From Cyanidioschyzon merolae (taxonomy: Eukaryota): DNA of 64,000 bases. A program made the translations under genes and the position numbers. Location of the stretch: the NCBI GenBank assembly GCA_000091205.1, contig AP006494.2; one strand, 5' to 3'. Shown piece after piece: positions 6,109 to 44,000 of this stretch. The notes under the pieces were generated by a model. The model did no database searches. It was not told the DNA's origin and was given only the letters and a program-made list of their open reading frames with translations. Within the stretch, counting starts at the first letter, position 1, and the number at the start of each line of letters is the position of its first letter.

Positions 6109-6285
6109 GATCGTTTTCCCTTCAGTACGAGAAGGTGCACTTGTTGCCTGCTGAGGAGCAACGCATACACAGCAGCAGTAGCAGCAGCGTTCTCCGCAGA
6201 GGCGCTCCGGTCGCAACGCCGCGGCCATGGAGACGAGTTGCCAGGTCGCAGCGCCTGCGATCATCGCGCTCTGCAACCTGAACGT

Positions 6286-7503
6286 ATGCTTTCGAATGAA
6301 TACCAGTACAATTTGGAGTTTTTCCAGTATAAGCTACATGCAACTGGCGTACAGGCCATATGCCGTGACGTTTACGGTGGCCAGGACTATCTCCCTACGC
6401 TTCTAGCGGAAAGATATGGCTCGGAAGGCTCGTCTGTCGCAAGCAACGACCCATGTGTGGAGCGGTACTACGTGTTGTGCAGGTCGAAACCGAGCGCCGT
6501 CCACAGAGAGGCTGTTGCCGACGCTGAAGACACCATTGATCGAGTCGATGCACCTCTTGTTGCAGCGGTAGGTGGGTACTTTCTGCTCTCTCCTGGACAC
6601 TACTGGATCCAAGGCGTTCGCGTTGCAGCGGCGCAGCGGGGCAAGGGACTCGGTCTGGGGATCACGTCGGCTGTGGTGCGAGCACTGGAACAACTTGGCA
6701 AGAACTCGCAACAGACGCTACACCTCTGGTCCTGTACGATAACGGACAACAAGCCGATGCGTCGCATCTTTCGAAAACTTGGTTTTGTCGAGTTCCAGAG
6801 GTGTTGGCTGTGGCCGAGTCCCACGTTCATGCAAATCCTCCGGAGGATCGATGAACGCATCGCCTCAGCACCGAACCATGTTCGTGAGACGTTTGCAACA
6901 ATGCTGAAGGCTACCCGCTGGGAAACGCCTGCAGAGGAATCCTCTGAACCCTGCATCATCGACGCATCCACAGATCAGAGGGTCTCTATGCAACCCGAGT
7001 CGTTCTGGGAAACGGTACCCAGTCCGGCCAGTGCCTTTGAGGCGCTCACCCGACACCGGCTCTGTGTTCCACTTTACTACTGGTGCTTACCGCCCGAAGC
7101 ACTCGAGAAGGGTGCGATCTCTGTGGACTGGCTCTGGATAGGCCAATACAAAGGCGAGGACCGTGCTCTCGGTTGGATCTTTGTGTATCGGGAGCCGCTG
7201 ATCCAAACGAGCGATCCAACAGTGGCGGGAGTGATTGCCTCTTCTTGCAAGGTACTGCTGTCAGCTGTACAACATCTGAACCGCATGTTTCCTCGGTTCC
7301 GAACGGTCATGGATACGAGCTTGTTCCCGTCTAATGAGTGCCGTATACCTGAAGGCTTTCGTCGCTGGTCAGCGGCATCCCAAATGGTAAATGTGTATCG
7401 AAAACTAGAGCTGAAAAACGCGGAATCGGAAGCGAGGAGCGATTGCGTCGGGCAACGCCCTGGGGCGTTCGCATGCCTGACACCTCAGTGTGCCGCAGAG
7501 TGA
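6286..7503 (+). CDS. GNAT-family N-acetyltransferase domain protein with a long C-terminal extension
   Basis: Acetyl-CoA-binding motif A …IQGVRVAAAQRGKGLGLGITSAVVRAL… (Q/R-x-x-G-x-G/A). The track ORF begins at TTG 6238; the first in-frame ATG is at 6286. The gene is divergent from SRP68 with about 178 bp between the start codons. Confidence 0.7.
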   Translation: MLSNEYQYNLEFFQYKLHATGVQAICRDVYGGQDYLPTLLAERYGSEGSSVASNDPCVERYYVLCRSKPSAVHREAVADAEDTIDRVDAPLVAAVGGYFLLSPGHYWIQGVRVAAAQRGKGLGLGITSAVVRALEQLGKNSQQTLHLWSCTITDNKPMRRIFRKLGFVEFQRCWLWPSPTFMQILRRIDERIASAPNHVRETFATMLKATRWETPAEESSEPCIIDASTDQRVSMQPESFWETVPSPASAFEALTRHRLCVPLYYWCLPPEALEKGAISVDWLWIGQYKGEDRALGWIFVYREPLIQTSDPTVAGVIASSCKVLLSAVQHLNRMFPRFRTVMDTSLFPSNECRIPEGFRRWSAASQMVNVYRKLELKNAESEARSDCVGQRPGAFACLTPQCAAE

Positions 7504-7545
7504 CGCTGCGGAGCGTACGAGCGTCAAGGTACGCGTCGCCTCGAA

Positions 7546-8093
7546 GGGTATCGAATCGTTACCGACTGGTTCCTGCCGGATATCAAAACCGCTCTAGTAT
7601 GCAGATTCGATCAAGGGTATCGAATCGTTACCGACTGGTTCCTGTCGGATATCAAACCGCTCTAGTATGCAGATTCGATCAAGGGTATCGAATCGTTACC
7701 GACTGGTTCCTGTCGGATATCAAAACCCTCTAGTATGCAGATTCGATCAAGGGTATCGAATCGTTACCGACTGGTTCCTGTCGGATATCAAAACCCTCTA
7801 GTATGCAGATTCGATCAAGGGTATCGAATCGTTACCGACTGGTTCCTGTCGGCTATCAAAACCCTCTAGTATGAAGATTCGATCAAGGGTATCGAATCGT
7901 TACCGAATGGTTCCTGCCGGATATCAAACCGCTCTAGTATGAAGATTCGATCAAGGGTATCGAATCGTTACCGAATGGTTCCTGCCGGATATCAAACCGC
8001 TCTAGTATGCAGATTCGATCAAGGGTATCGAATCGTTACCGACTGGTTCATGGCGGATATCAAACCGCTCTAGTATGCAGATTCGATCCGGGG
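7546..8093. repeat. Tandem satellite: 68-bp unit x ~8, near-identical copies
   Basis: The unit gggtatcgaatcgttaccgactggttcctgtcggatatcaaaaccctctagtatgcagattcgatcaa repeats head-to-tail. Each unit carries two palindromes: gattcgat…atcgaatc across unit junctions and ccgac…gtcgg inside. A few point variants occur (tgtcgg/tgccgg, cagat/aagat). Confidence 0.95.
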
Positions 8094-8901
8094 TGCGCAG
8101 CGAGGCATCCATCGCCAGGACAAGTATGCAATCGCTCCGAATTCGTACCAGCTGGGTACCAATTGCTCTAGTGAGAGGATTTTTGAAGCTCTAGAACGGA
8201 ATCGGAGACGAAGACTCGACGCAAGCAACACGACTTTTACCAAGTGGCGTTGATGCGTTTCTGCTTTCAATATCGGAATCGAATGGTGCCCGTGCGAATG
8301 CCGGTGGCTTTGCTGATTCGAGGAAGCATGCCGCCAGTTTTCCTTAGCTCTCAGGCGAGTTCATCAGGTAAAACCCTCGACAGCTGGACGTCCAACAAAT
8401 ACCATCCCCGGAGACGCCCTTGAGAAAGCGTCGCGGAATCCTCGACAAACACAGGATTGCATACGAGCGCAGGCTCACCAGTTTTCGGCACAACATGCAG
8501 GCCGAGTCGTTCGAGCTGGAACCAAGTTGCTGGTGCCCGTAGAGTACCCCTTTTCCGCGACGCAGTCCAACGTTTGCGCTGCTTTCCGCGAGCCCTATCG
8601 AACAGAATTTCCTGCGCGCATTGCCGGTTAACGCAGGAGTTTGCAGCAACCTCGAACGATCATGAATGACGGACAGCGGTCGACGCAAGCGCAGCCGCTT
8701 GATGAAAAGTGATGCTCTCCCGAACCAACACGCTGTTTTGAAAGCTCAACGTCAGAATGCCCAATGTCGTACAATGGATTGCATCAGTTCACGGTGTACC
8801 TTTTCACAATCGTTTAGTGTGCTCATTAGACATCGACGAGCGACAAGTGATGATCCGTTTGTTGCGCAAACTGCCCAAATCGTAAACGCCAGCAACGCTT
8901 C

Positions 8902-9825
8902 CTACGTCGACGGCGATACATTTTTCACGACACCGACTTCGGCAGGCCGAAGCACCCGATCATGAATGCGATAGCCGGCTTTGAGCACATGCAAAATGGC
9001 CCCGTCGGGTAGCGACGGTGACGGTTTCGCCGCTCCAGACTGCTCTGAGGTAGCGGAATCAGCTACCGGGGCAGGTGCCTCGAACACCGCTTGGTGAACC
9101 TCGGGATTGAAGGGCTCACCAATTTCACCGTACCGCTCAATACCAAATTTTTGCAGGGTTCTCTGCAATTCCCGTTCTGTCGCCGATACTCCCTCATACA
9201 AAGCTGTAAGAAGACTCGCTAATTTCGCTGATTCTGCTGCCGAAACCGCACCGCCTGCGCCAGTGCTATTCGATGATGAACTCACTTCCAACTGCTGCCG
9301 CGGGACCGCTGCCAATGCTCGATTCAAGTTATCCGCAACATCCAGTAGCTCTTTCGCAAACGAAGAGATACTGTATTTCCGGGCTGCTTCGACGTCCCGC
9401 CGAGCAATCATACGCACGTTCTCCATCTCGGCGAGCAGCCGAATCGCACGATCCCGTAGTGTCGCAATCTCCTGTTCCTTCTCCTGTAACAGACCTTCGA
9501 GTCTCTGCACTCGTTCTTGTGCATCGGGAGTTCCAGTGCTTTGTTGCGTGTTTTGATCTCCGGAAGCGCCAGGGGTCGGCTTTGCCGTCGCCGGGCCCTG
9601 CGACCCGGTGTCAGCACCGTTCGTGCCGGCTGCTGATCCGCCTTTTGCCGTTTCATCGTAACCGAAAACTTGATCCGCAGTGGATTTACGAGAATCCGAA
9701 CAAATCCTCCGCCAATGAACAGTACCAGAACGGTGCTCGAACCCTAGTGCCGAGCCACGCCGCGTTCGCACGCTGCCGAGGCGCCCGATGAGCGCCACAG
9801 CGAACCTCGAACGCTGTCCAAGCAT
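8902..9825 (-). CDS. GRPE: GrpE (Mge1) nucleotide-exchange factor for mitochondrial Hsp70
   Basis: …LRDRAIRLLAEMENVRMIARRDVEAARKYSISSFAKELLDVADNLNRAL… and the C-terminal …FNPEVHQAVFEAPAP…HVLKAGYRIHDRVLRPAEVGV are classic GrpE blocks. The N-terminus is Arg-rich (MLGQRSRFAVALIGRLGSVRTRRG) and looks like a presequence. The track start 9858 is GTG; the ATG is at 9825. Confidence 0.85.
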   Translation of the reverse strand: MLGQRSRFAVALIGRLGSVRTRRGSALGFEHRSGTVHWRRICSDSRKSTADQVFGYDETAKGGSAAGTNGADTGSQGPATAKPTPGASGDQNTQQSTGTPDAQERVQRLEGLLQEKEQEIATLRDRAIRLLAEMENVRMIARRDVEAARKYSISSFAKELLDVADNLNRALAAVPRQQLEVSSSSNSTGAGGAVSAAESAKLASLLTALYEGVSATERELQRTLQKFGIERYGEIGEPFNPEVHQAVFEAPAPVADSATSEQSGAAKPSPSLPDGAILHVLKAGYRIHDRVLRPAEVGVVKNVSPST

Positions 9826-10025: not shown

Positions 10026-10051
10026 GCGCTGCTGCTGCTGTTGCTGCTGCT

Positions 10052-10086
<35 letters not shown>

Positions 10087-22573: not shown

Positions 22574-22662
22574 CCGGCAACAGCGGTATTCACAAGCGGC
22601 AGCTGCGGCTCGACACCGTGGACTACGCGCAAGCGGCCTTGTGCGGGCAATGCTCTACCCAC

Positions 22663-22686
22663 AGCAGTAGCAGCAGCAGTAGCAGC

Positions 22687-22746
<60 letters not shown>
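22663..22746. repeat. (CAG)n trinucleotide microsatellite with TAG interruptions, ~85 bp
   Basis: Read directly. It lies just 3' of the LCMT1 stop codon and creates spurious poly-Leu/poly-Cys ORFs on the minus strand. Confidence 0.95.
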
Positions 22747-29872: not shown

Positions 29873-30502
29873 TTACGTCACTTGTTTAAGCGTAAATACC
29901 TGTTCGCAAAGTGGGCAAACTGCGGGTTGATCTTTCCGCACTTCGAGCCAGTAGAGGTCGTGATCATTGGGTGCAGCGGGACCCGTGCAACCCACGATAC
30001 GGCTGTTGTAGGCGCTCTCGACCATAACCGGAGCATCCATGGTCCCGAAAGGCCCGCGGATAACTTCGTTGTGTTTGAAAAGGTCGGGGTACTCCAGCTC
30101 CAAACGCTCCAGTCCGGTTGCTTGATCCTCCGCGGTGGGCATCGCTCCAGGCGGCGCTCCCCGAACCGGCGGCTGCAAGTCCGTGGCTTCATCATTTGAT
30201 GTGTCCATAGCTGCCGAGGCACGCGGCGGCGACAGCGAGGCACTCGAACCGCTGGCTTTGGTCGCGATGCTCGCGCAGCAGGGCACGCTCGGCTGTAGCG
30301 CTGACCGCCTCGTACGCCCACCAGGAACTAAAAGTCCACTGCTACGCCACCAGAACCAATACCCTTGCGGAAATGTCTTATCCTTATGTACGGGTACGTC
30401 AAGGATCTCAAGGTTGCGCCAACGCGTGCTCGTGCTCGTTGCGCGCGCTAATGTGCGCCTTAAGAGCGCATCCAAGCCACCGCACACCAAGAACCGTTGC
30501 AT
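29873..30502 (-). CDS. COX5B: Cytochrome c oxidase subunit Vb (zinc-binding; yeast Cox4 type)
   Basis: …AEDQATGLERLELE…NSRIVGCTGPAAPNDHDLYWLEVRKDQPAVCPLCEQVFTLKQV parallels human COX5B …DEEQATGLEREV…[38 protein letters not shown]. The ATG is at 30502. The N-terminal extension (~130 aa) is unusually long for a presequence, so the true 5' end may differ. Confidence 0.8.
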   Translation of the reverse strand: MQRFLVCGGLDALLRRTLARATSTSTRWRNLEILDVPVHKDKTFPQGYWFWWRSSGLLVPGGRTRRSALQPSVPCCASIATKASGSSASLSPPRASAAMDTSNDEATDLQPPVRGAPPGAMPTAEDQATGLERLELEYPDLFKHNEVIRGPFGTMDAPVMVESAYNSRIVGCTGPAAPNDHDLYWLEVRKDQPAVCPLCEQVFTLKQVT

Positions 30503-30699
30503 GCTGGCGTGTCCTCTATTCGAAACAGCTTACCACTGCGAACAGCACCGTTGAAAGCCCACGACGTCGGAACAGCTTACAAGGTTTCGTCGCAGTCCGT
30601 GCTGGTCTACCAAAGTCTCAGGGGGTGCTCTGTGTATCTATGTGGAATGCTCACGACTGACGTTCGAGCGAACATTGCCCTGCCGTCGCGATGGCGATC

Positions 30700-31015
30700 G
30701 GGCGGAGGAACGGCACGGCGGCGGCGCAGCATGCGACGCGTCTATGCACGTATGCGATGCATCTATGCACGTATGTGTGTGCGTCTATGCATGCGTGCTG
30801 TGCATCTATGCACGTATGCGATGCATCTATGCACGTATGTGTGTGCTTCTATGCACGTATGCGGCGCGTCTATGCATGCGTGCGATGCATCTATGCACGT
30901 GCGTGCTGTGCATCTATGCACGTATGCGATGCATCTAGGCACGTATGCGACGCGTCTATGCACGTATGTGTGTACATCTATGCGTGCGTGCTGTGCGTGT
31001 GCGTGTGTGGGCGTT
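30700..31015. repeat. Degenerate 21–22-bp minisatellite (~13 units; consensus near gcatctatgcacgtatgcgat)
   Basis: Read directly: repeated ctatgcacgtatg(c/t)g… blocks. The track ORFs 30497..31144(+), 30642..30938 and 30691..31056 are repeat translations (…MHVCDASMHVC…). Confidence 0.9.
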
Positions 31016-33141
31016 CCAGACTATGCGGTGCGTTTGCTGGTCGATATCGCGAGTGAATGGGGCGCTCGTGATCGCCCCTGTGCTGTGTGCAGTCGTGGAG
31101 GTTGTGCAGAGAGCGACGTAAGCGCAACAACTGGGAGCAGGTAGTCAACGGTGATGATAAACAAGATGAACAAGAAGAAGATAATGATGACGACCATCAT
31201 CATCTACGACCGCGTGCTTTCTTTTGCATCATTTCTCGTCAGCGTCGATGCTGGCTGCTTGGCTTTTCTCGCGAACTATTGTGTGTTACGATGAGGCAAA
31301 GTCGTGCTGTCCTGGTGCGGCGCTAGCAGCATCGTTGCGTCGATCAGGCCTCGATACCTCTGTGGAGCGCATTGTTCTGCGTTTGGTGGAATCTGGACAT
31401 GTATGCGTGTGCGCAGGGAGGCTCTGGACTTTGGATGAAAAACTCCGTGACCACGAGAGGCGGAATGAGATTCTCGCCTGGAGCACCGTACTAGTACTGA
31501 ACGGTTCAGCATTGCTGCAAAGCTGGTGCGCCACATATTGATGTATATTGGAAACGGTCATCGTGGCCGCTCAGTGGCTGATAACCATGTACCATTATTC
31601 GATAGTACTGCGTTTAAAAGAAACGTTTAGTAAATGAGTCTTTTTTTCGATAAACGGTGTCCCTCAAAAGTCGATTGCGTTCCCGAGAGCGTCCAGCTTG
31701 AATCCCTGGACAAGGCCAGCGATCGTCTCCGCGGTATCCAGGTTCACGAGGTACGCGCTGTGCGCCTGCATCATCAGGAGACCACGTTGGGCCTCCTTGG
31801 TTCATCTACATGCCCATATAGCGCTTCAAGAATCCCATCTCCATACGACATCATTGTGTTCGTTTCAAACCTTGTACTTGGGGTAGTTGGCAGCTGCGCG
31901 CGCAAATCGTTCATAGTAACGAGCTGTTCTCCCGAGGCGATCAGCACTTGAACGAGTACTTGTTAACGTCTGTGCTTTTGATGCGGTGCGGTGATTTCGT
32001 CGAGTTTTGCAAGTTGCACTGCGCGTACCGTGCAACGTGTTGTTGGTAACGACCAACAACGTGCTCCGCATCGACGTTGCCCGCAGCTTCTGTTCGCAAG
32101 CGATGCTGACCTGGTACTATCCCTTACTAGGCACACGCACGACCAAGATACTGTTGAAGCCAGACCTCTGCGAGGCGAGCTCGGTGCTGTGCACAAGGCG
32201 GTCGTATCTCGCTGCGGATGGAGCTGTGCAAGAGGAAAAGGCTTAAGCGCCCTTTATCGTTCTTATGAACTCGCAGCGGGCGCTTGGACACCGCTCACCG
32301 GAAGCAGCTCGAGACCAGTTTGGGCCCTGAACGGATACAGGCTCGGTGCATTACACTCGTGACCTTAGCCCGTACTCTTAGGACTGGTGCTGCTCCTGGG
32401 TCACGAACGGTATTCGTTGACAGGCTCGACGCGAGTAGTGCAGCGTTCGCAGACGCTGCGTCCAAGACACAACGAACCCGCTACACCGAGCAGCAGCAAA
32501 CGCACACCTGTAACTTGCGTCAGGGGGCACCGAGGCGCCTGGCACCGAGTGCTGGCATTCGCACAGTCACGTTTCTTGGCACTCCATTGCATTCATAGGC
32601 GAGGGATCCATACGCCATCATGAGCTGTAGAGTGCGTTTACAACTTCAGTATCCATGCACAGCGCCACACCTGCACCGGCCAGAGAGATATAGAGCCATA
32701 CCGCCAAGTAGGCTCTACATAGTTGCAAACCATGGTGACTCGATAGCAAACACGTGGACGTGGCTCCTAGCCAGGCTTTGATTCAACAATGAGCGATCAC
32801 AGCGATATCGTTGAGGTTACGCGCCTCCAGTGACGACCCCGAGTGGTGCACCCGATCTACACGCCGTATCGCTGCCGCTCACGAACAGGATGCCTCTCGA
32901 AAGCTGAGTTCCAACTCATTTGGATGCCGCGCACAAGTCATGATGCCCTTCTTCACGTTTCGATACGTTCAAAGGCTGCATGATACGCGATCTGAACAAA
33001 ACGACTCGATCTTAGCGTGGCTGCGAGCGTCTATTCGTTCTGGACTCGATTGCCTCCCAGCGGACGCGTTCGTTGCTAAAAATGCCAAGTGCAAGCACGG
33101 CTGCGGAGGGTATGCGTAAGCGCCGGACGCTGCGCATGTCA

Positions 33142-41043: not shown

Positions 41044-41080
<37 letters not shown>

Positions 41081-44000
41081 TGATAGTGATGATGATGATG
41101 ATGATGATGATCATGACGATGATACGAATGCCCGGCTCGGAGACGGTGCTCCATCTGGTGACGCAGACGAAGACGGCCATGAGGATCCCGGTCGAACGAC
41201 GAGAGGCTTCTCCGCCCCCATCGAGTGGTCGACCGAAGATCGAATGGCGCTCGGTGTAGGCACATGCTTCGGACTTGTCGCGCTACCGTGGTCTCGTGCA
41301 GAGAACGAGTCGCTGTTTGTCATGCTCATGGATCGCTCACTATCGACAGCAACAGTGGCGCCCGGACCTGATCGTCGCTTGCTGCTCCTGCTGGTCGACC
41401 GTAACGCTCAAACCGTACACGCCAAGGCGATGAGCAGCCCGCTGGACCCCAGTGCATATGGCATCTATGCGCTCTCTGACGGAATGCTTCTCATTGTATC
41501 GCGCTCCACCGTTGAAGTCTGGTGCTTTCGCGGTACCCCGGAAGCGAACGCGAATGAAGAGCCATCGTCAGGGTTTTCGGCAAATGCGGGGACGTTCTCC
41601 TGCCTCGCGAAGCTTCCACACCGAGCGCTGCTTACCAGGAGGTCCTCGACGAGAGACGGCGCTCATGATATCACGGTGCGTAACGCCTTGTTCGACAGCG
41701 CACACCTCCAGGCAAACGGGGAACCTTCGGGGAGCGTTCTCATAACAGCAGCCGCGCTCTGGGAGGCAGCTTGCTCAAGGGAACAGCTTTGCGTGCTCCT
41801 TGGCGACGAAGATGGCTATCTATTCCGGTTGACGATTGTGCTCAGGCCCGTCGAGGACGGCATCCAAAGCGAAGCACTTTCCGTGCGGATGTTGGGACGC
41901 TTCCACGCACCCGTTAGCGCTCTCTGTTTCCTGGGCGGTGATGACATTGCAGCAGCCGCGGTCTTTGTGACCCTGGAGCAAGGGGATCATGCCGTTGTGC
42001 TCCTCGATAGGCCGCAGCTGCAAGCTGGGAAGCGCGACTCGCTTCCGGTCGCATCCGCGCTGCCGGATACGAGCAGCGACGGCACCTCTGCGTCCAGAAC
42101 GGAGCACCTGGCGGGCCTTGACGACGCCATGAGCAACAGCAACAACACGCTGAGCATTGTCGATACGATACCTGGTCACCATCCGGTGATCATGAGTTTG
42201 CTGTTGCGGACGGATCGCTGCTGCCAAGCTGAAGCAGCACAAACTGGCTGCCTGCCGACCTGGCAGTTACTGGGAGCGTCAGCTACCGCTGATCCCAATG
42301 AAACCCCCCTCCGTATCTTCGTACCAATGCGGGATACAGTAGCACTGGCACAGTCACCGGTGGACGGTCGAGCACAGCGGGTCTTCGCCCTGCCGCCGCT
42401 GCTCCAGCGTTCTACCACGGAACCGGCTGCAACGTTGCCGCCTGAATCAGTCTCCGATACCGCAACTGTTGCTCTCCTGGTGCTCTCGTTTACCCAGCAG
42501 ACGCGAGTGTTTCGCTTCCAGTCCCTGGCGCTTCACGAGGAACACACGCTCGGTTTCGAGCACAACACGAGCACCGTTCATGCAGCACTGCTCTGCAGTG
42601 ACTGGTCGCGTAGCGCTTGCTGCTGGGTTCAGGTTCACAGCCATGGGGTGCGCTTGATCGGTGCGGCGTCCTCGGACTCAAGAAGCGCCTCTGTGGTCGA
42701 CGTGTACACCGCCAGCACGCAGCAGCCCATTGTAGCGGCCGATAGCACTCTATCCCAAGTGCTGCTGCTCCTCGCCGACGGTCAACTGGTCTACCTGGTA
42801 GCTTCCGACACCGATTCGGATTCTGACAAGCAATCCAAAGTCAGAGGTAACGCTTCTCCGCCGGCCATGGAGCTCGGATTCGGGCCCCGGAGTGCTTTAC
42901 AAAGCGCTGCGGCGGCTAATGCGCCCACCGAAGCTCCTCCACGAATACCACCGTCGCCAACGAGTCGTGCTGTGGCCTGCTGCCTGGTGCCGCTGGATAA
43001 TCCATCATGGTCCTCGTATTTGGTTTACGTCGAAGCGGGTGCATCTCCAGTGCTGCGCATCTGTCAGGTGCCGGAGCGAGCGACGCACGCTCCCGTGCAG
43101 TGCCTGTACAGCGTGCTTCTGCCGCAGCTGCCAACCGGGATAGCTGCAGTGCACACCGCAGGCACAGCGTCGCTTGTCGACCTCTGGGCAGGCCTCGAAG
43201 ACGGTACCTTGCTGCGCGTTGAGGCGGTAGATGTGGCCGAGCTCCAGATGACAACAGAGCGAGGCACACCACGTCTGCACAGGTATCACCTCGGAGCGGC
43301 AGCCGGTCTGCGCCTGCGTCGCGTGCTGGTGCCACCAGCGCTCGGCACAGAAGCGTTGCTGGTGTTGGGCTCGAGTTCCTGGTTGATACCACTCTCGTCG
43401 TCGTCGTCGTCGTCGTTATGGACGCATCCGTACCCCATTCACGCTGGGCAGCTACTCGATGCCGCCAGTTTTCCCCTGCCGCAGATGTGCTCCACCGTGG
43501 ATCCCGAGACGCACTCAGAGGCTGTTGCGGTGTTTCCAGCGGCAACAGCGATCGCAGCGCTCAGCGAACAGGGTCGCACGCTCGAGTTTCTCAGCTTTGC
43601 CGCCGACGACTCGAGCTCTAACCTGCTCACCATTCGCCCAGTGTCGAAGCCGCAGCCAGCAGATGCTGCTGCATCAGGAACCACTGTGTCACGGAAGGTT
43701 GTCCGCAAACTCTGCTGGATCTTTCCCAATGAACTTGCCGCCATTGCGATAAGTACAGAAGGCGAACGCGGACCCCAGGTTCAGTTGCAGCTGGTACAGG
43801 TCCCCGGATCAGAACGGGTAGCGTCGCAGCACTTGTCATCGAGCGACATGGAGTCGCATGCTTTCTGGCAGCATTTGCGGCTTGACGGAGGTGTGCGTAT
43901 CGCCGGTGCACCCGCCTGGGGCGGTATACGCGTCACCAGTATGATCAGCGTCGATTTACCGTCATTATCATTACCATCGTCAGATACAAAGAACGAACAG

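What the first reader, a model, noticed from the sequence alone, without database searches (positions are those of the whole stretch)
7546..8093. 68-bp tandem satellite (8 units) with two palindromic hairpins per unit, between two convergent gene 3' ends
The copies are near-perfect, so the array was homogenised recently. Each unit contains gattcgat/atcgaatc (8-bp arms spanning unit junctions) and ccgac…gtcgg. The few variants between units (tgtcgg to tgccgg, which breaks the stem) are not compensatory. That argues against a selected structured-RNA array. The alternatives are a satellite, a protein-binding array or a replication-slippage hotspot. It lies in the 1.4 kb between the GNAT stop (7503) and the GrpE stop (8902), a convergent terminator zone.
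Basis: seen in the sequence. Interest (0 to 1): 0.5.

Follow-up and report, generated by a model that had tools for sequence, protein, structure and literature searches.

The report
Strain-variable 68-bp minisatellite, Cyanidioschyzon merolae
This is an ordinary non-coding tandem repeat found at one locus only, between two convergent genes on chromosome 12 of the red alga Cyanidioschyzon merolae; its copy number ranges from 1 to at least 8 among natural strains, so it could serve as a strain marker, but nothing points to a new functional element.

Summary
Eight head-to-tail units of 68 bp (one of 69 bp) lie at 7546-8090. They are 96% alike and are the only copies in the 64-kb window.

The window is C. 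merolae 10D chromosome 12. The flanking ORFs exactly match CML087C (a GNAT-domain protein, stop at 7503) and the mitochondrial GrpE (stop at 8902).

The same locus recurs in about ten metagenome contigs from 10D-like populations, with flanks 98.6-99.4% identical to the window. Those contigs carry 1, 3 or 4 units, or break inside arrays of at least 4-5 units. They hold 17 unit variants in different orders.

The unit occurs nowhere else in the metagenome, viral or prokaryote collections. Syntenic spacers of two related species have no similar sequence.

No base-pair change is compensatory. The 5-bp hairpin is broken in most units and is expected by chance. The 8-bp palindrome is only mildly unusual (2.6% of shuffles). 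There is no Rfam match, no ORF and no conserved coding signal.

Best reading: a young, locus-specific hypervariable minisatellite (VNTR). It grew from a single-copy spacer segment by slippage or unequal homologous recombination. It probably lies inside the CML087C 3' UTR.

It is a new member of a known kind, and of low interest.

The parts
7546..8090 (.). The minisatellite array: 8 head-to-tail units (69, then 7 x 68 bp). Consensus unit: GGGTATCGAATCGTTACCGACTGGTTCCTGTCGGATATCAAACCGCTCTAGTATGCAGATTCGATCAA. Order of unit variants (interspersion map): A B C C D E F G.
   Evidence: TRF score 969 with 96% matches; unit table; variant map; no copies elsewhere in the window.
7604..7626 (.). First of 7 junction palindromes, GATTCGAT-caagggt-ATCGAATC. 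The others start at 7672, 7740, 7808, 7876, 7944 and 8012.
   Evidence: Inverted-repeat pairs I12-I18. The arms are nearly invariant across alleles, with no compensatory change. An 8-bp inverted repeat arises in 2.6% of shuffled units.
7631..7648 (.). Short hairpin CCGAC-tggttcct-GTCGG in unit 2. It is also intact in units 3-5 and broken in units 1, 6, 7 and 8.
   Evidence: Unit sequences. The A-U pair is broken in 10 of 13 distinct windows and the C-G pair in 3 of 13. Inverted repeats of 5 bp or more arise in 79% of shuffles.
7537..7549 (.). Left boundary, ...CCTCGAA|GGGT. The GGGT also begins every unit and begins the right flank (8091-8094, GGGTGCGCAG). This 4-bp microhomology brackets the single-copy form.
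   Evidence: Sequence. Some alleles read ...GATCAA|GGGTGCG at the right edge and others ...GATCCG|GGGTGCG, so exchanges reach into the flank GGGT.
8124..8181 (+). Possible decayed extra unit, about 65% identical and in register with one whole unit, starting 33 bp beyond the array.
   Evidence: Local alignment score of 17, against 10.2 +/- 2.0 in shuffles; 2 of 200 shuffles reach it, and four control regions score 9-11. With stricter scoring it is not significant. Suggestive only.
6286..7503 (+). CML087C, a hypothetical protein with a GNAT acetyltransferase domain (405 aa). Its stop codon lies 43 nt before the array.
   Evidence: Pfam Acetyltransf_1, E = 1.2e-6. Exact match to BAM80704.1 / CYME_CML087C. 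Homology to the relative's protein runs to residue 381 of 405, so the gene is intact.
8902..9825 (-). Mitochondrial GrpE co-chaperone gene (307 aa), convergent with CML087C.
   Evidence: Pfam GrpE, E = 2.8e-41. 100% identical to C. merolae 10D BAM80705.1.
8369..8372 (+). First TAAA on the + strand after the CML087C stop (865 nt downstream, 279 nt past the array). It is the presumptive poly(A) signal, which would place the whole array in the 3' UTR.
   Evidence: TAAA map. UAAA is the poly(A) signal for 93% of primary sites in C. merolae (PMC8831791). The distance from stop to first TAAA has a median of 373 nt for 16 ORFs, against 865 here and 388 with a single unit. Inference; no transcript data.
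8813..8816 (-). First TAAA on the - strand after the GrpE stop (85 nt downstream). GrpE transcripts probably end well short of the array.
   Evidence: Inference.

Best explanation
This is a young, locus-specific, hypervariable minisatellite (VNTR) in the spacer between CML087C and the GrpE gene on chromosome 12 of Cyanidioschyzon merolae 10D.

A 68-bp stretch of unique spacer DNA, bracketed by the short direct repeat GGGT, was duplicated in place. That single-copy form still exists in some natural strains. Once two copies existed, replication slippage and/or unequal homologous recombination and gene conversion between units expanded, contracted and partly homogenised the array. This produced alleles of 1 to at least 8 units with shuffled orders of unit variants. 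The short palindromes in the unit may favour slippage, but they are not under detectable selection.

The array is non-coding and probably neutral. Its most likely side effect is to lengthen the 3' UTR of CML087C from about 0.4 kb to about 0.9 kb.

Shown: the array, its restriction to one locus, allelic variation in number and order of units, absence from related species, and absence of covariation or coding signal.

Inferred: the mutational mechanism, neutrality, and the 3' UTR location.
For: Array anatomy.

Identity of the window: the GNAT, GrpE and TPR proteins exactly match C. merolae 10D entries on an 859,119-bp record. That length equals chromosome 12 of the gap-free Sanger genome (PMC1955436).

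Alleles at the same locus in independent assemblies, with flanks 98.6-99.4% identical to the window:
- HIBG, 4 units.
- HAJC, 4 units, seen in both a JGI and an ENA assembly.
- K, 1 unit, with its own variant, on two haplotypes that differ in the flank.
- LMN, 3 units.
- Five contigs that break inside the array (partial maps HIH....BOPMC..IFMN..FMN and a lone edge unit), plus one contig that stops exactly at the array's edge.

The probe from the left half of the unit found only this locus in 241 million metagenome records; that collection holds 10D-like contigs of up to 110 kb. The one other hit is a chance 19-mer match. The viral collection and the prokaryote genome collection gave nothing. 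ATCGAATC occurs nowhere else in the window, against 2 expected.

The syntenic GNAT-GrpE spacers of a relative with 74%-identical GrpE and of Cyanidiococcus yangmingshanensis have no similarity to this spacer. The first carries its own unrelated 88-131 bp tandem duplications.

No compensatory pairs. Folding is not beyond shuffles for single units. No Rfam or tRNA hits. No ORF longer than 96 aa and no conserved coding signal.

Published background: C. merolae has very efficient homologous recombination. Excision between direct repeats has been shown experimentally in 10D, and meiotic recombination occurs in the genus (PMC13353863).
Against: Copy numbers in the other alleles come from short-read metagenome assemblies, which can collapse or break tandem repeats. 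Six contigs stop inside or exactly at the array. Exact allele sizes are therefore uncertain, and mixed populations can yield chimeric unit orders.

Variable positions are not spread evenly: 9 of 13 fall in columns 21-46 of the 69-column unit alignment. The two outer thirds, including the 8-bp palindrome, are almost invariant across 16 variants. This could reflect constraint on a binding site rather than neutrality.

An 8-bp palindrome in a 68-bp unit is mildly unusual (2.6% of shuffles).

I could not search the complete 16.5-Mb genome directly. No transcript, chromatin or read-level data were available.
Confidence: 0.8

Rival explanations
1. The array is a functional protein-binding array. Each junction palindrome (GATTCGAT n7 ATCGAATC) would be a site for a dimeric DNA-binding protein. 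The array would act as an insulator or termination barrier between the convergent genes, as a replication origin or fork barrier, or as a recombination hotspot, with copy number tuning its strength.
For: The palindrome and the outer parts of the unit are nearly invariant across 16 unit variants, while the centre varies. An 8-bp inverted repeat is found in only 2.6% of shuffled units. The array sits between convergent genes.
Against: The motif ATCGAATC occurs nowhere else in 64 kb, and the unit occurs at no other locus, so a dedicated binding protein would have a single target. Natural alleles with one unit exist. Related species lack the sequence although synteny is conserved. One variant (J) breaks the palindrome arm with no compensating change. 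With only about 13 variable columns, the uneven spread is weak evidence.
Confidence: 0.07
2. The array is a functional RNA element. The units would be transcribed as part of the CML087C 3' UTR or as a separate non-coding RNA, and their hairpins would act in mRNA stability, localisation or 3'-end formation.
For: No UAAA poly(A) signal lies between the CML087C stop and 8369, so the array is probably transcribed. The whole array on the - strand folds better than shuffles (z = -4.3).
Against: No compensatory change at any of 13 pairs, and the short stem is broken in most units. Single units fold no better than shuffles (z = -0.4 to -2.5), and the + strand array gives z = -1.3. The - strand z-score is inflated because shuffling destroys the repeated palindromes. 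No Rfam match even at E <= 10. Copy number is not conserved, and the element is absent from relatives.
Confidence: 0.04
3. The eight copies in the window are an assembly artefact: mis-assembly, or over-expansion of a shorter repeat.
For: Tandem repeats are error-prone in assemblies. Other assemblies show fewer units.
Against: The window matches the finished, gap-free, Sanger/BAC-based 10D genome. A 545-bp array is within reach of single Sanger reads (my own knowledge of read lengths). The eight units carry seven distinct variant types in a unique order, which makes them assemblable. Independent metagenome contigs contain at least 4.4 and at least 5.5 units before breaking.
Confidence: 0.02
4. 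The array derives from a mobile element (a MITE-like unit with 8-bp terminal inverted repeats, or a Helitron- or transposon-borne satellite), or is one site of a dispersed satellite family.
For: Each unit starts with ATCGAATC (after GGGT) and ends with its inverted copy GATTCGAT (before CAA), which resembles short terminal inverted repeats.
Against: No other copy in the window, in the metagenome contigs of the same species, or in the viral or prokaryote collections. No empty-site allele was seen, and every allele keeps at least one unit at the same position. No target-site duplication is evident beyond the GGGT microhomology.
Confidence: 0.02

Closest known systems
Hypervariable minisatellites / VNTR loci of eukaryotes (unit 10-100 bp, arrays of 0.1 to several kb, typed by the order of variant repeats along the array)
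   Same: The unit is 68 bp and the array is 0.07-0.55 kb, head to tail and non-coding. It occupies a single locus. Copy number differs among closely related strains, and unit variants are interspersed in allele-specific orders. One array edge switches between two readings among alleles. There is no conserved function or structure.
   Different: Classical human minisatellites are G+C-rich with a strand asymmetry and are often subtelomeric. This one is 46-48% G+C, below the 55% of the genome, has no skew and lies in a gene-dense interior region. Instability in meiosis or mitosis has not been measured here.
Satellite DNA (centromeric or subtelomeric arrays)
   Same: Tandem head-to-tail organisation, with units homogenised within the array.
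   Different: There is one short array at one euchromatic locus rather than long arrays at many chromosomal sites.
Lineage-specific tandem duplications in the intergenic spacers of Cyanidioschyzon-like genomes. Repeat expansion is reported to have enlarged C. merolae spacers to 1.9 kb on average (PMC9812998).
   Same: Same genomic setting and the same likely mutational process. The window holds a second minisatellite at 30729-31033. The relative's locus L011 holds three 2-copy duplications of 88-131 bp within 17 kb.
   Different: Those examples have only about 2 copies or are much more decayed. This array has 8 near-identical units and documented differences between strains.
Arrays of repeated protein-binding sites (e.g. 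iterons, operator or insulator arrays)
   Same: Regular spacing of a palindromic motif.
   Different: There is no evidence of a binding protein. The motif is unique to this locus, copy number is not conserved, and the array is absent from relatives.

Membership tests
Minisatellite / VNTR | Head-to-tail tandem repeats with a unit of roughly 10-100 bp | tested here: met
   Period 68, 8.0 copies, 96% matches, no indels; unit table.
Minisatellite / VNTR | Copy number differs between individuals or strains at the same locus | tested here: met
   The window has 8 units. Contigs that span the array in flanks 98.6-99.4% identical carry 4, 4, 3 and 1 units, and other contigs reach at least 4.4 and 5.5 units. 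Caveat: these are short-read metagenome assemblies. The 1-unit allele carries a private variant on two haplotypes, which argues against simple collapse.
Minisatellite / VNTR | Unit variants interspersed in allele-specific orders | tested here: met
   16 variants plus 1 more. The orders are ABCCDEFG, HIBG, HAJC, K, LMN, HIH....BOPMC..IFMN and ..FMN.
Minisatellite / VNTR | Measured germline or mitotic instability (new length alleles in pedigrees or clones) | not testable with these tools
   Requires PCR or long reads on clonal lines and meiotic progeny.
Satellite DNA (genome-wide) | Many arrays or very high copy number at several chromosomal sites | tested here: not met
   No other copy in 64 kb. 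Only this locus was found in the metagenome collection, which holds large contigs of the same species. The full 10D genome was not searched directly.
Structured non-coding RNA repeat | Base pairs maintained by compensatory changes; match to a known RNA family | tested here: not met
   0 pairs with a change on both sides; helix 2 is paired in 80% of cells, with one pair broken in 10 of 13 windows. Rfam gives no hits at gathering thresholds or at E <= 10. No tRNA.
CRISPR-like array | Conserved repeats separated by unique spacers of similar length | tested here: not met
   The units abut directly with no unique spacers, and the host is a eukaryote.
MITE / transposon-derived repeat | Multiple dispersed copies with terminal inverted repeats and target-site duplications; empty sites in some genomes | tested here: not met
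   Single locus only. Every allele keeps at least 1 unit, so no empty site exists. Relatives have unrelated spacer sequence rather than an empty site.
Protein-binding site array | A sequence-specific protein occupies each unit | not testable with these tools
   No chromatin or binding data. Indirect evidence only: the palindrome is unique to this locus and is conserved among units.
Coding tandem repeat | An open reading frame through the array, with a period that is a multiple of 3 | tested here: not met
   68 is not a multiple of 3. TAG recurs in every unit on the + strand and several stops recur on the - strand. The longest ORF touching the array is 96 aa.

The most novel reading that the evidence does not exclude
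The array is not neutral. The invariant junction palindromes would form a copy-number-tunable platform, either for a DNA-binding protein or as a hairpin-prone recombination or replication-pause site. That platform would set transcription termination or 3' UTR length for CML087C between the two convergent genes. Natural variation from 1 to at least 8 units would then be a rapidly evolving expression 'dial' in an otherwise extremely streamlined genome.
Probability: 0.06. Interest if true: 0.45.

Novelty: new member of a known kind. Interest (0 to 1): 0.15.

Why it matters
The practical value is modest. C. merolae is a model alga with a finished genome, efficient homologous recombination and a recently described sexual cycle.

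A single-locus minisatellite with 1 to at least 8 units and 17 unit variants would be a cheap, highly informative marker. It could distinguish strains and natural populations, and it could be used to follow recombination or slippage in crosses and in long-term cultures.

It also illustrates how spacers grew in Cyanidioschyzon relative to its sister genera. If the 3' UTR inference is right, it offers a natural allelic series of 3' UTR lengths for one gene.

It does not point to a new class of element.

Tried and rejected
- Rfam, across the whole window at gathering thresholds and across 7300-9000 at E <= 10: nothing. tRNA/tmRNA scan: nothing.
- Bacterial-type promoter and terminator scan of the spacer: at chance level, and not applicable to a eukaryote.
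- Search for the unit elsewhere. The metagenome scan returned only this locus plus one chance 19-mer match in a 55.9-kb viral contig. The second half of the unit gave nothing in the viral collection or the GTDB prokaryote genomes.
- Homology of the spacer to the syntenic spacers of two relatives by blastn (word size 7), and a six-frame translated comparison: nothing significant. There is therefore no hidden conserved gene or element.
- GCTCTAG as a possible general 3'-end motif. It is enriched only because of the array and three nearby copies; elsewhere it is at chance.
- Decayed units in the flanks. With strict scoring nothing was found. With lenient scoring there is one in-register candidate at 8124-8181 (2 of 200 shuffles reach its score). 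I kept it as suggestive only.
- Literature: no paper in the library mentions CML087C. I found no description of this repeat in the C. merolae genome and repeat papers I read, nor in a search for C. merolae with 'minisatellite'.
- The supplement of the poly(A) long-read paper does not list CML087C or CML088C.

Full report
**1. The observation**

Tandem Repeats Finder reports a single strong array at 7544-8088: period 68, 8.0 copies, 96% matches, no indels, score 969. In the phase I used, the units begin at 7546, 7615, 7683, 7751, 7819, 7887, 7955 and 8023, and the array ends at 8090. Unit 1 has one extra A (69 bp). A 19-mer and a 21-mer from the two ends of the unit, each allowed 3 mismatches, hit only these eight places in the 64-kb window, against 0.00-0.03 hits expected.

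The 8-bp palindrome GATTCGAT / ATCGAATC, with a 7-nt spacer, sits at all seven internal junctions. The same arms also pair within each unit, 45-46 nt apart. The second hairpin, CCGAC-n8-GTCGG, is intact only in units 2-5.

In 2000 shuffles of the unit read as a tandem repeat, 2.6% contain an inverted repeat of 8 bp or more and 79% contain one of 5 bp or more. The long palindrome is therefore mildly unusual and the short one is expected by chance.

The array is 46-48% G+C with no strand skew. No reading frame stays open through it: 68 is not a multiple of 3, and the longest ORF touching the array is 96 aa.

**2. Where the window comes from**

The flanking ORFs are eukaryotic:
- a UAA-family nucleotide-sugar transporter;
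- SRP68;
- a GNAT-domain protein, with its stop at 7503 on the + strand;
- a GrpE co-chaperone, with its stop at 8902 on the - strand;
- an HtrA-type protease;
- a TPR protein.

The GrpE protein is 100% identical to Cyanidioschyzon merolae 10D BAM80705.1 / XP_005536741.1. The GNAT ORF is an exact match to CYME_CML087C (BAM80704.1), and the TPR protein is an exact match to BAM80708.1. All three lie on an 859,119-bp record. That length is the length of chromosome 12 in the '100%-complete' Sanger/BAC genome (PMC1955436, Table 1).

The window is therefore C. merolae 10D chromosome 12, or an indistinguishable strain. This makes an assembly artefact unlikely, although I had no reads to check.

**3. 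The same locus in other strains**

The GrpE protein is encoded on 14 contigs from JGI, ENA and Logan metagenome assemblies. A DNA scan of the JGI metagenome collection added two more contigs. Their flanks are 98.6-99.4% identical to the window. They come from 10D-like natural populations of the kind reported from Yellowstone (PMC11662350).

I named the 16 distinct full-length unit variants A to P. The alleles then read:
- window: A B C C D E F G;
- L001: H I B G;
- L002 and L009 (an ENA and a JGI assembly): H A J C;
- L003 and L004: K alone. This is a single unit with a private variant, on two haplotypes that differ in the left flank;
- L006: L M N;
- contigs that break inside the array: L007 (H I H ...), L019 (... 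B O P M C), L020 (... I F M N) and L021 (... F M N);
- L005 stops exactly at the array's edge;
- L022 holds one edge unit carrying a 17th variant.

Short-read assemblies can collapse tandem repeats, so the exact sizes are uncertain. Even so, the different variant orders, the private variants and the partial arrays of at least 4.4 and 5.5 units show real allelic diversity in both number and order of units.

The right edge also differs between alleles...GATCCG|GGGTGCG in some and ...GATCAA|GGGTGCG in others. The exchange register therefore reaches into the flanking GGGT. That same tetranucleotide starts every unit and brackets the single-copy form.

**4. Is the unit found elsewhere?**

The scan of 241 million metagenome records with a 19-mer from the left half of the unit returned only this locus plus one 55.9-kb viral contig. 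That contig shares the 19-mer and nothing else. The other half of the unit gave no hits in the viral collection or in the prokaryote genome collection. ATCGAATC does not occur anywhere else in the window, against 2 expected.

This is therefore not a dispersed, centromeric or subtelomeric satellite, and it does not look like a mobile family.

**5. Related species**

The gene order TPR - HtrA - GrpE - GNAT - SRP68 - UAA is conserved in two relatives. One is an uncultured relative whose GrpE is 74% identical (L011 and L012). The other is Cyanidiococcus yangmingshanensis, whose GrpE is 58% identical (L013).

Their GNAT-GrpE spacers are 897 bp and 753 bp long and show no similarity to this one, either as DNA or in six-frame translation. 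L011 carries its own unrelated tandem duplications: 131 bp x 1.9 directly after its GrpE stop, plus 92 bp x 2 and 88 bp x 2 in neighbouring spacers. The window has a second, older minisatellite at 30729-31033.

Tandem duplication of spacer DNA therefore looks like a recurrent mutational process in this lineage. This fits the published statement that repeat expansion enlarged Cyanidioschyzon spacers to 1.9 kb on average, against 0.93 kb in Cyanidiococcus (PMC9812998).

**6. Structure and function tests**

I aligned 13 distinct junction-centred 68-nt windows (alignment A1) and counted pairs for both hairpins. No pair shows a change on both sides. Helix 1 almost never varies, and its one variant (J) weakens the helix: one pair is lost and another becomes G-U. 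In helix 2, the A-U pair is broken in 10 of 13 windows and the C-G pair in 3 of 13.

Single units fold with z-scores of -0.4 to -2.5 against shuffles, and the + strand array gives z = -1.3. Only the - strand array gives z = -4.3. That value is inflated, because shuffling destroys the repeated palindromes. Rfam and ARAGORN find nothing.

One observation is not fully explained. Of the 13 variable columns, 9 fall in columns 21-46 of the 69-column unit alignment, and the two outer thirds are almost invariant. With so few mutational events, and with CpG-containing hotspots in the centre (my inference), this is weak evidence for constraint. It is nevertheless the main reason I leave some probability on a protein-binding reading.

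**7. Relation to transcripts (inference)**

Long-read mRNA sequencing identified UAAA as the C. merolae poly(A) signal at 93% of primary sites, on average 17 nt before the cleavage site (PMC8831791).

On the + strand there is no TAAA between the CML087C stop (7503) and 8369, and the unit contains no TAAA on either strand. On the - strand the first TAAA after the GrpE stop is at 8816-8813, only 85 nt downstream.

For 16 large ORFs in the window, the median distance from the stop to the first TAAA is 373 nt. For CML087C it is 865 nt, and it would be 388 nt with a single unit.

The array therefore most likely lies inside the CML087C 3' UTR, and its expansion roughly doubled that UTR. No transcript data were available for this gene.

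**8. Mechanism**

The first step is inferred: a duplication of the 68-bp segment between the two GGGT microhomologies. A possible older, decayed copy lies at 8124-8181. It is about 65% identical and in register with a whole unit, and 2 of 200 shuffles reach its score.

The next step is also inferred: expansion, contraction and partial homogenisation by replication slippage and by unequal homologous recombination or gene conversion. These steps are plausible in an organism where homologous recombination is highly efficient, where excision between direct repeats has been shown experimentally in 10D, and where meiosis occurs (PMC13353863).

What is shown directly is the outcome: alleles of 1 to 8 or more units, with reshuffled variant orders, on backgrounds about 99% identical.

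**9. Comparison and verdict**

The feature meets the structural and population criteria of a minisatellite / VNTR. It fails the criteria for a genome-wide satellite, a structured RNA array, a CRISPR-like array, a coding repeat and a MITE family. I found no description of it in the papers I searched.

It is a new member of a well-known kind. It is ordinary in nature and could be modestly useful as a strain marker and as a reporter of recombination or slippage in a model alga. Interest: 0.15.

Noticed in passing
window 30729-31033: A second, more decayed minisatellite with nested periods of 21, 43, 64 and 129 bp (unit about ATGCGATGCATCTATGCACGT; 75-85% matches). A 215-aa ORF (30497-31144, + strand) runs through it, giving a Cys/Met/His/Arg-rich repetitive peptide. 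The ORF is probably a by-product of the 21-bp period rather than a gene.
   Followed up: partly
L011 4759-4940, 6933-7105, 8992-9243: The Cyanidioschyzon-like relative (GrpE 74% identical) has three unrelated tandem duplications within 17 kb, each of about 2 copies at 96-98% identity: 92, 88 and 131 bp. All three lie in intergenic spacers, and one starts 23 bp after its GrpE stop. Tandem duplication of spacer DNA appears to be frequent in this lineage.
   Followed up: partly
window 1-64000 (TAAA map): TAAA, the published C. merolae poly(A) signal, is under-represented: 162 occurrences on both strands against 197 +/- 14 in dinucleotide-preserving shuffles, all 100 of which had at least as many. 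This is consistent with avoidance of premature poly(A) signals in a gene-dense genome.
   Followed up: no
window 6238-6330: SRP68 (- strand) and CML087C (+ strand) are head to head. The gap between their start codons is about 10 bp by the longest ORFs here and 21-174 bp by the gene calls on the metagenome contigs. This is a very compact bidirectional promoter region.
   Followed up: no
window 10028-10085, 22662-22746, 41044-41123: Long trinucleotide runs: GCT x19, CAG x28, and ACG/GAT x12-17. The latter two lie inside large ORFs, so they probably encode homopolymeric amino-acid tracts that could also vary in length between strains.
   Followed up: no
window 7405-7411 (-), 8165-8171 (+), 8188-8194 (+): GCTCTAG, which also occurs in five of the eight array units, appears three more times in the non-repeated flanks of this spacer. 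There are only 7 more copies in the rest of the 64 kb (17 in all, against 6.7 +/- 2.4 expected for the whole window). These may be remnants of older unit copies or chance.
   Followed up: partly
L010 7052-7070 (= L023 13452-13470): A 55.9-kb contig, present in both the metagenome and the viral collections, shares an exact 19-mer with the unit but has no further similarity. This is a chance match and a reminder of the false-hit level of 19-mer scans.
   Followed up: yes
window 7493-7539: Three overlapping short inverted repeats (7-11 bp arms) sit on and just after the CML087C stop codon, immediately before the array. Their significance is unknown and they were not tested against chance.
   Followed up: no
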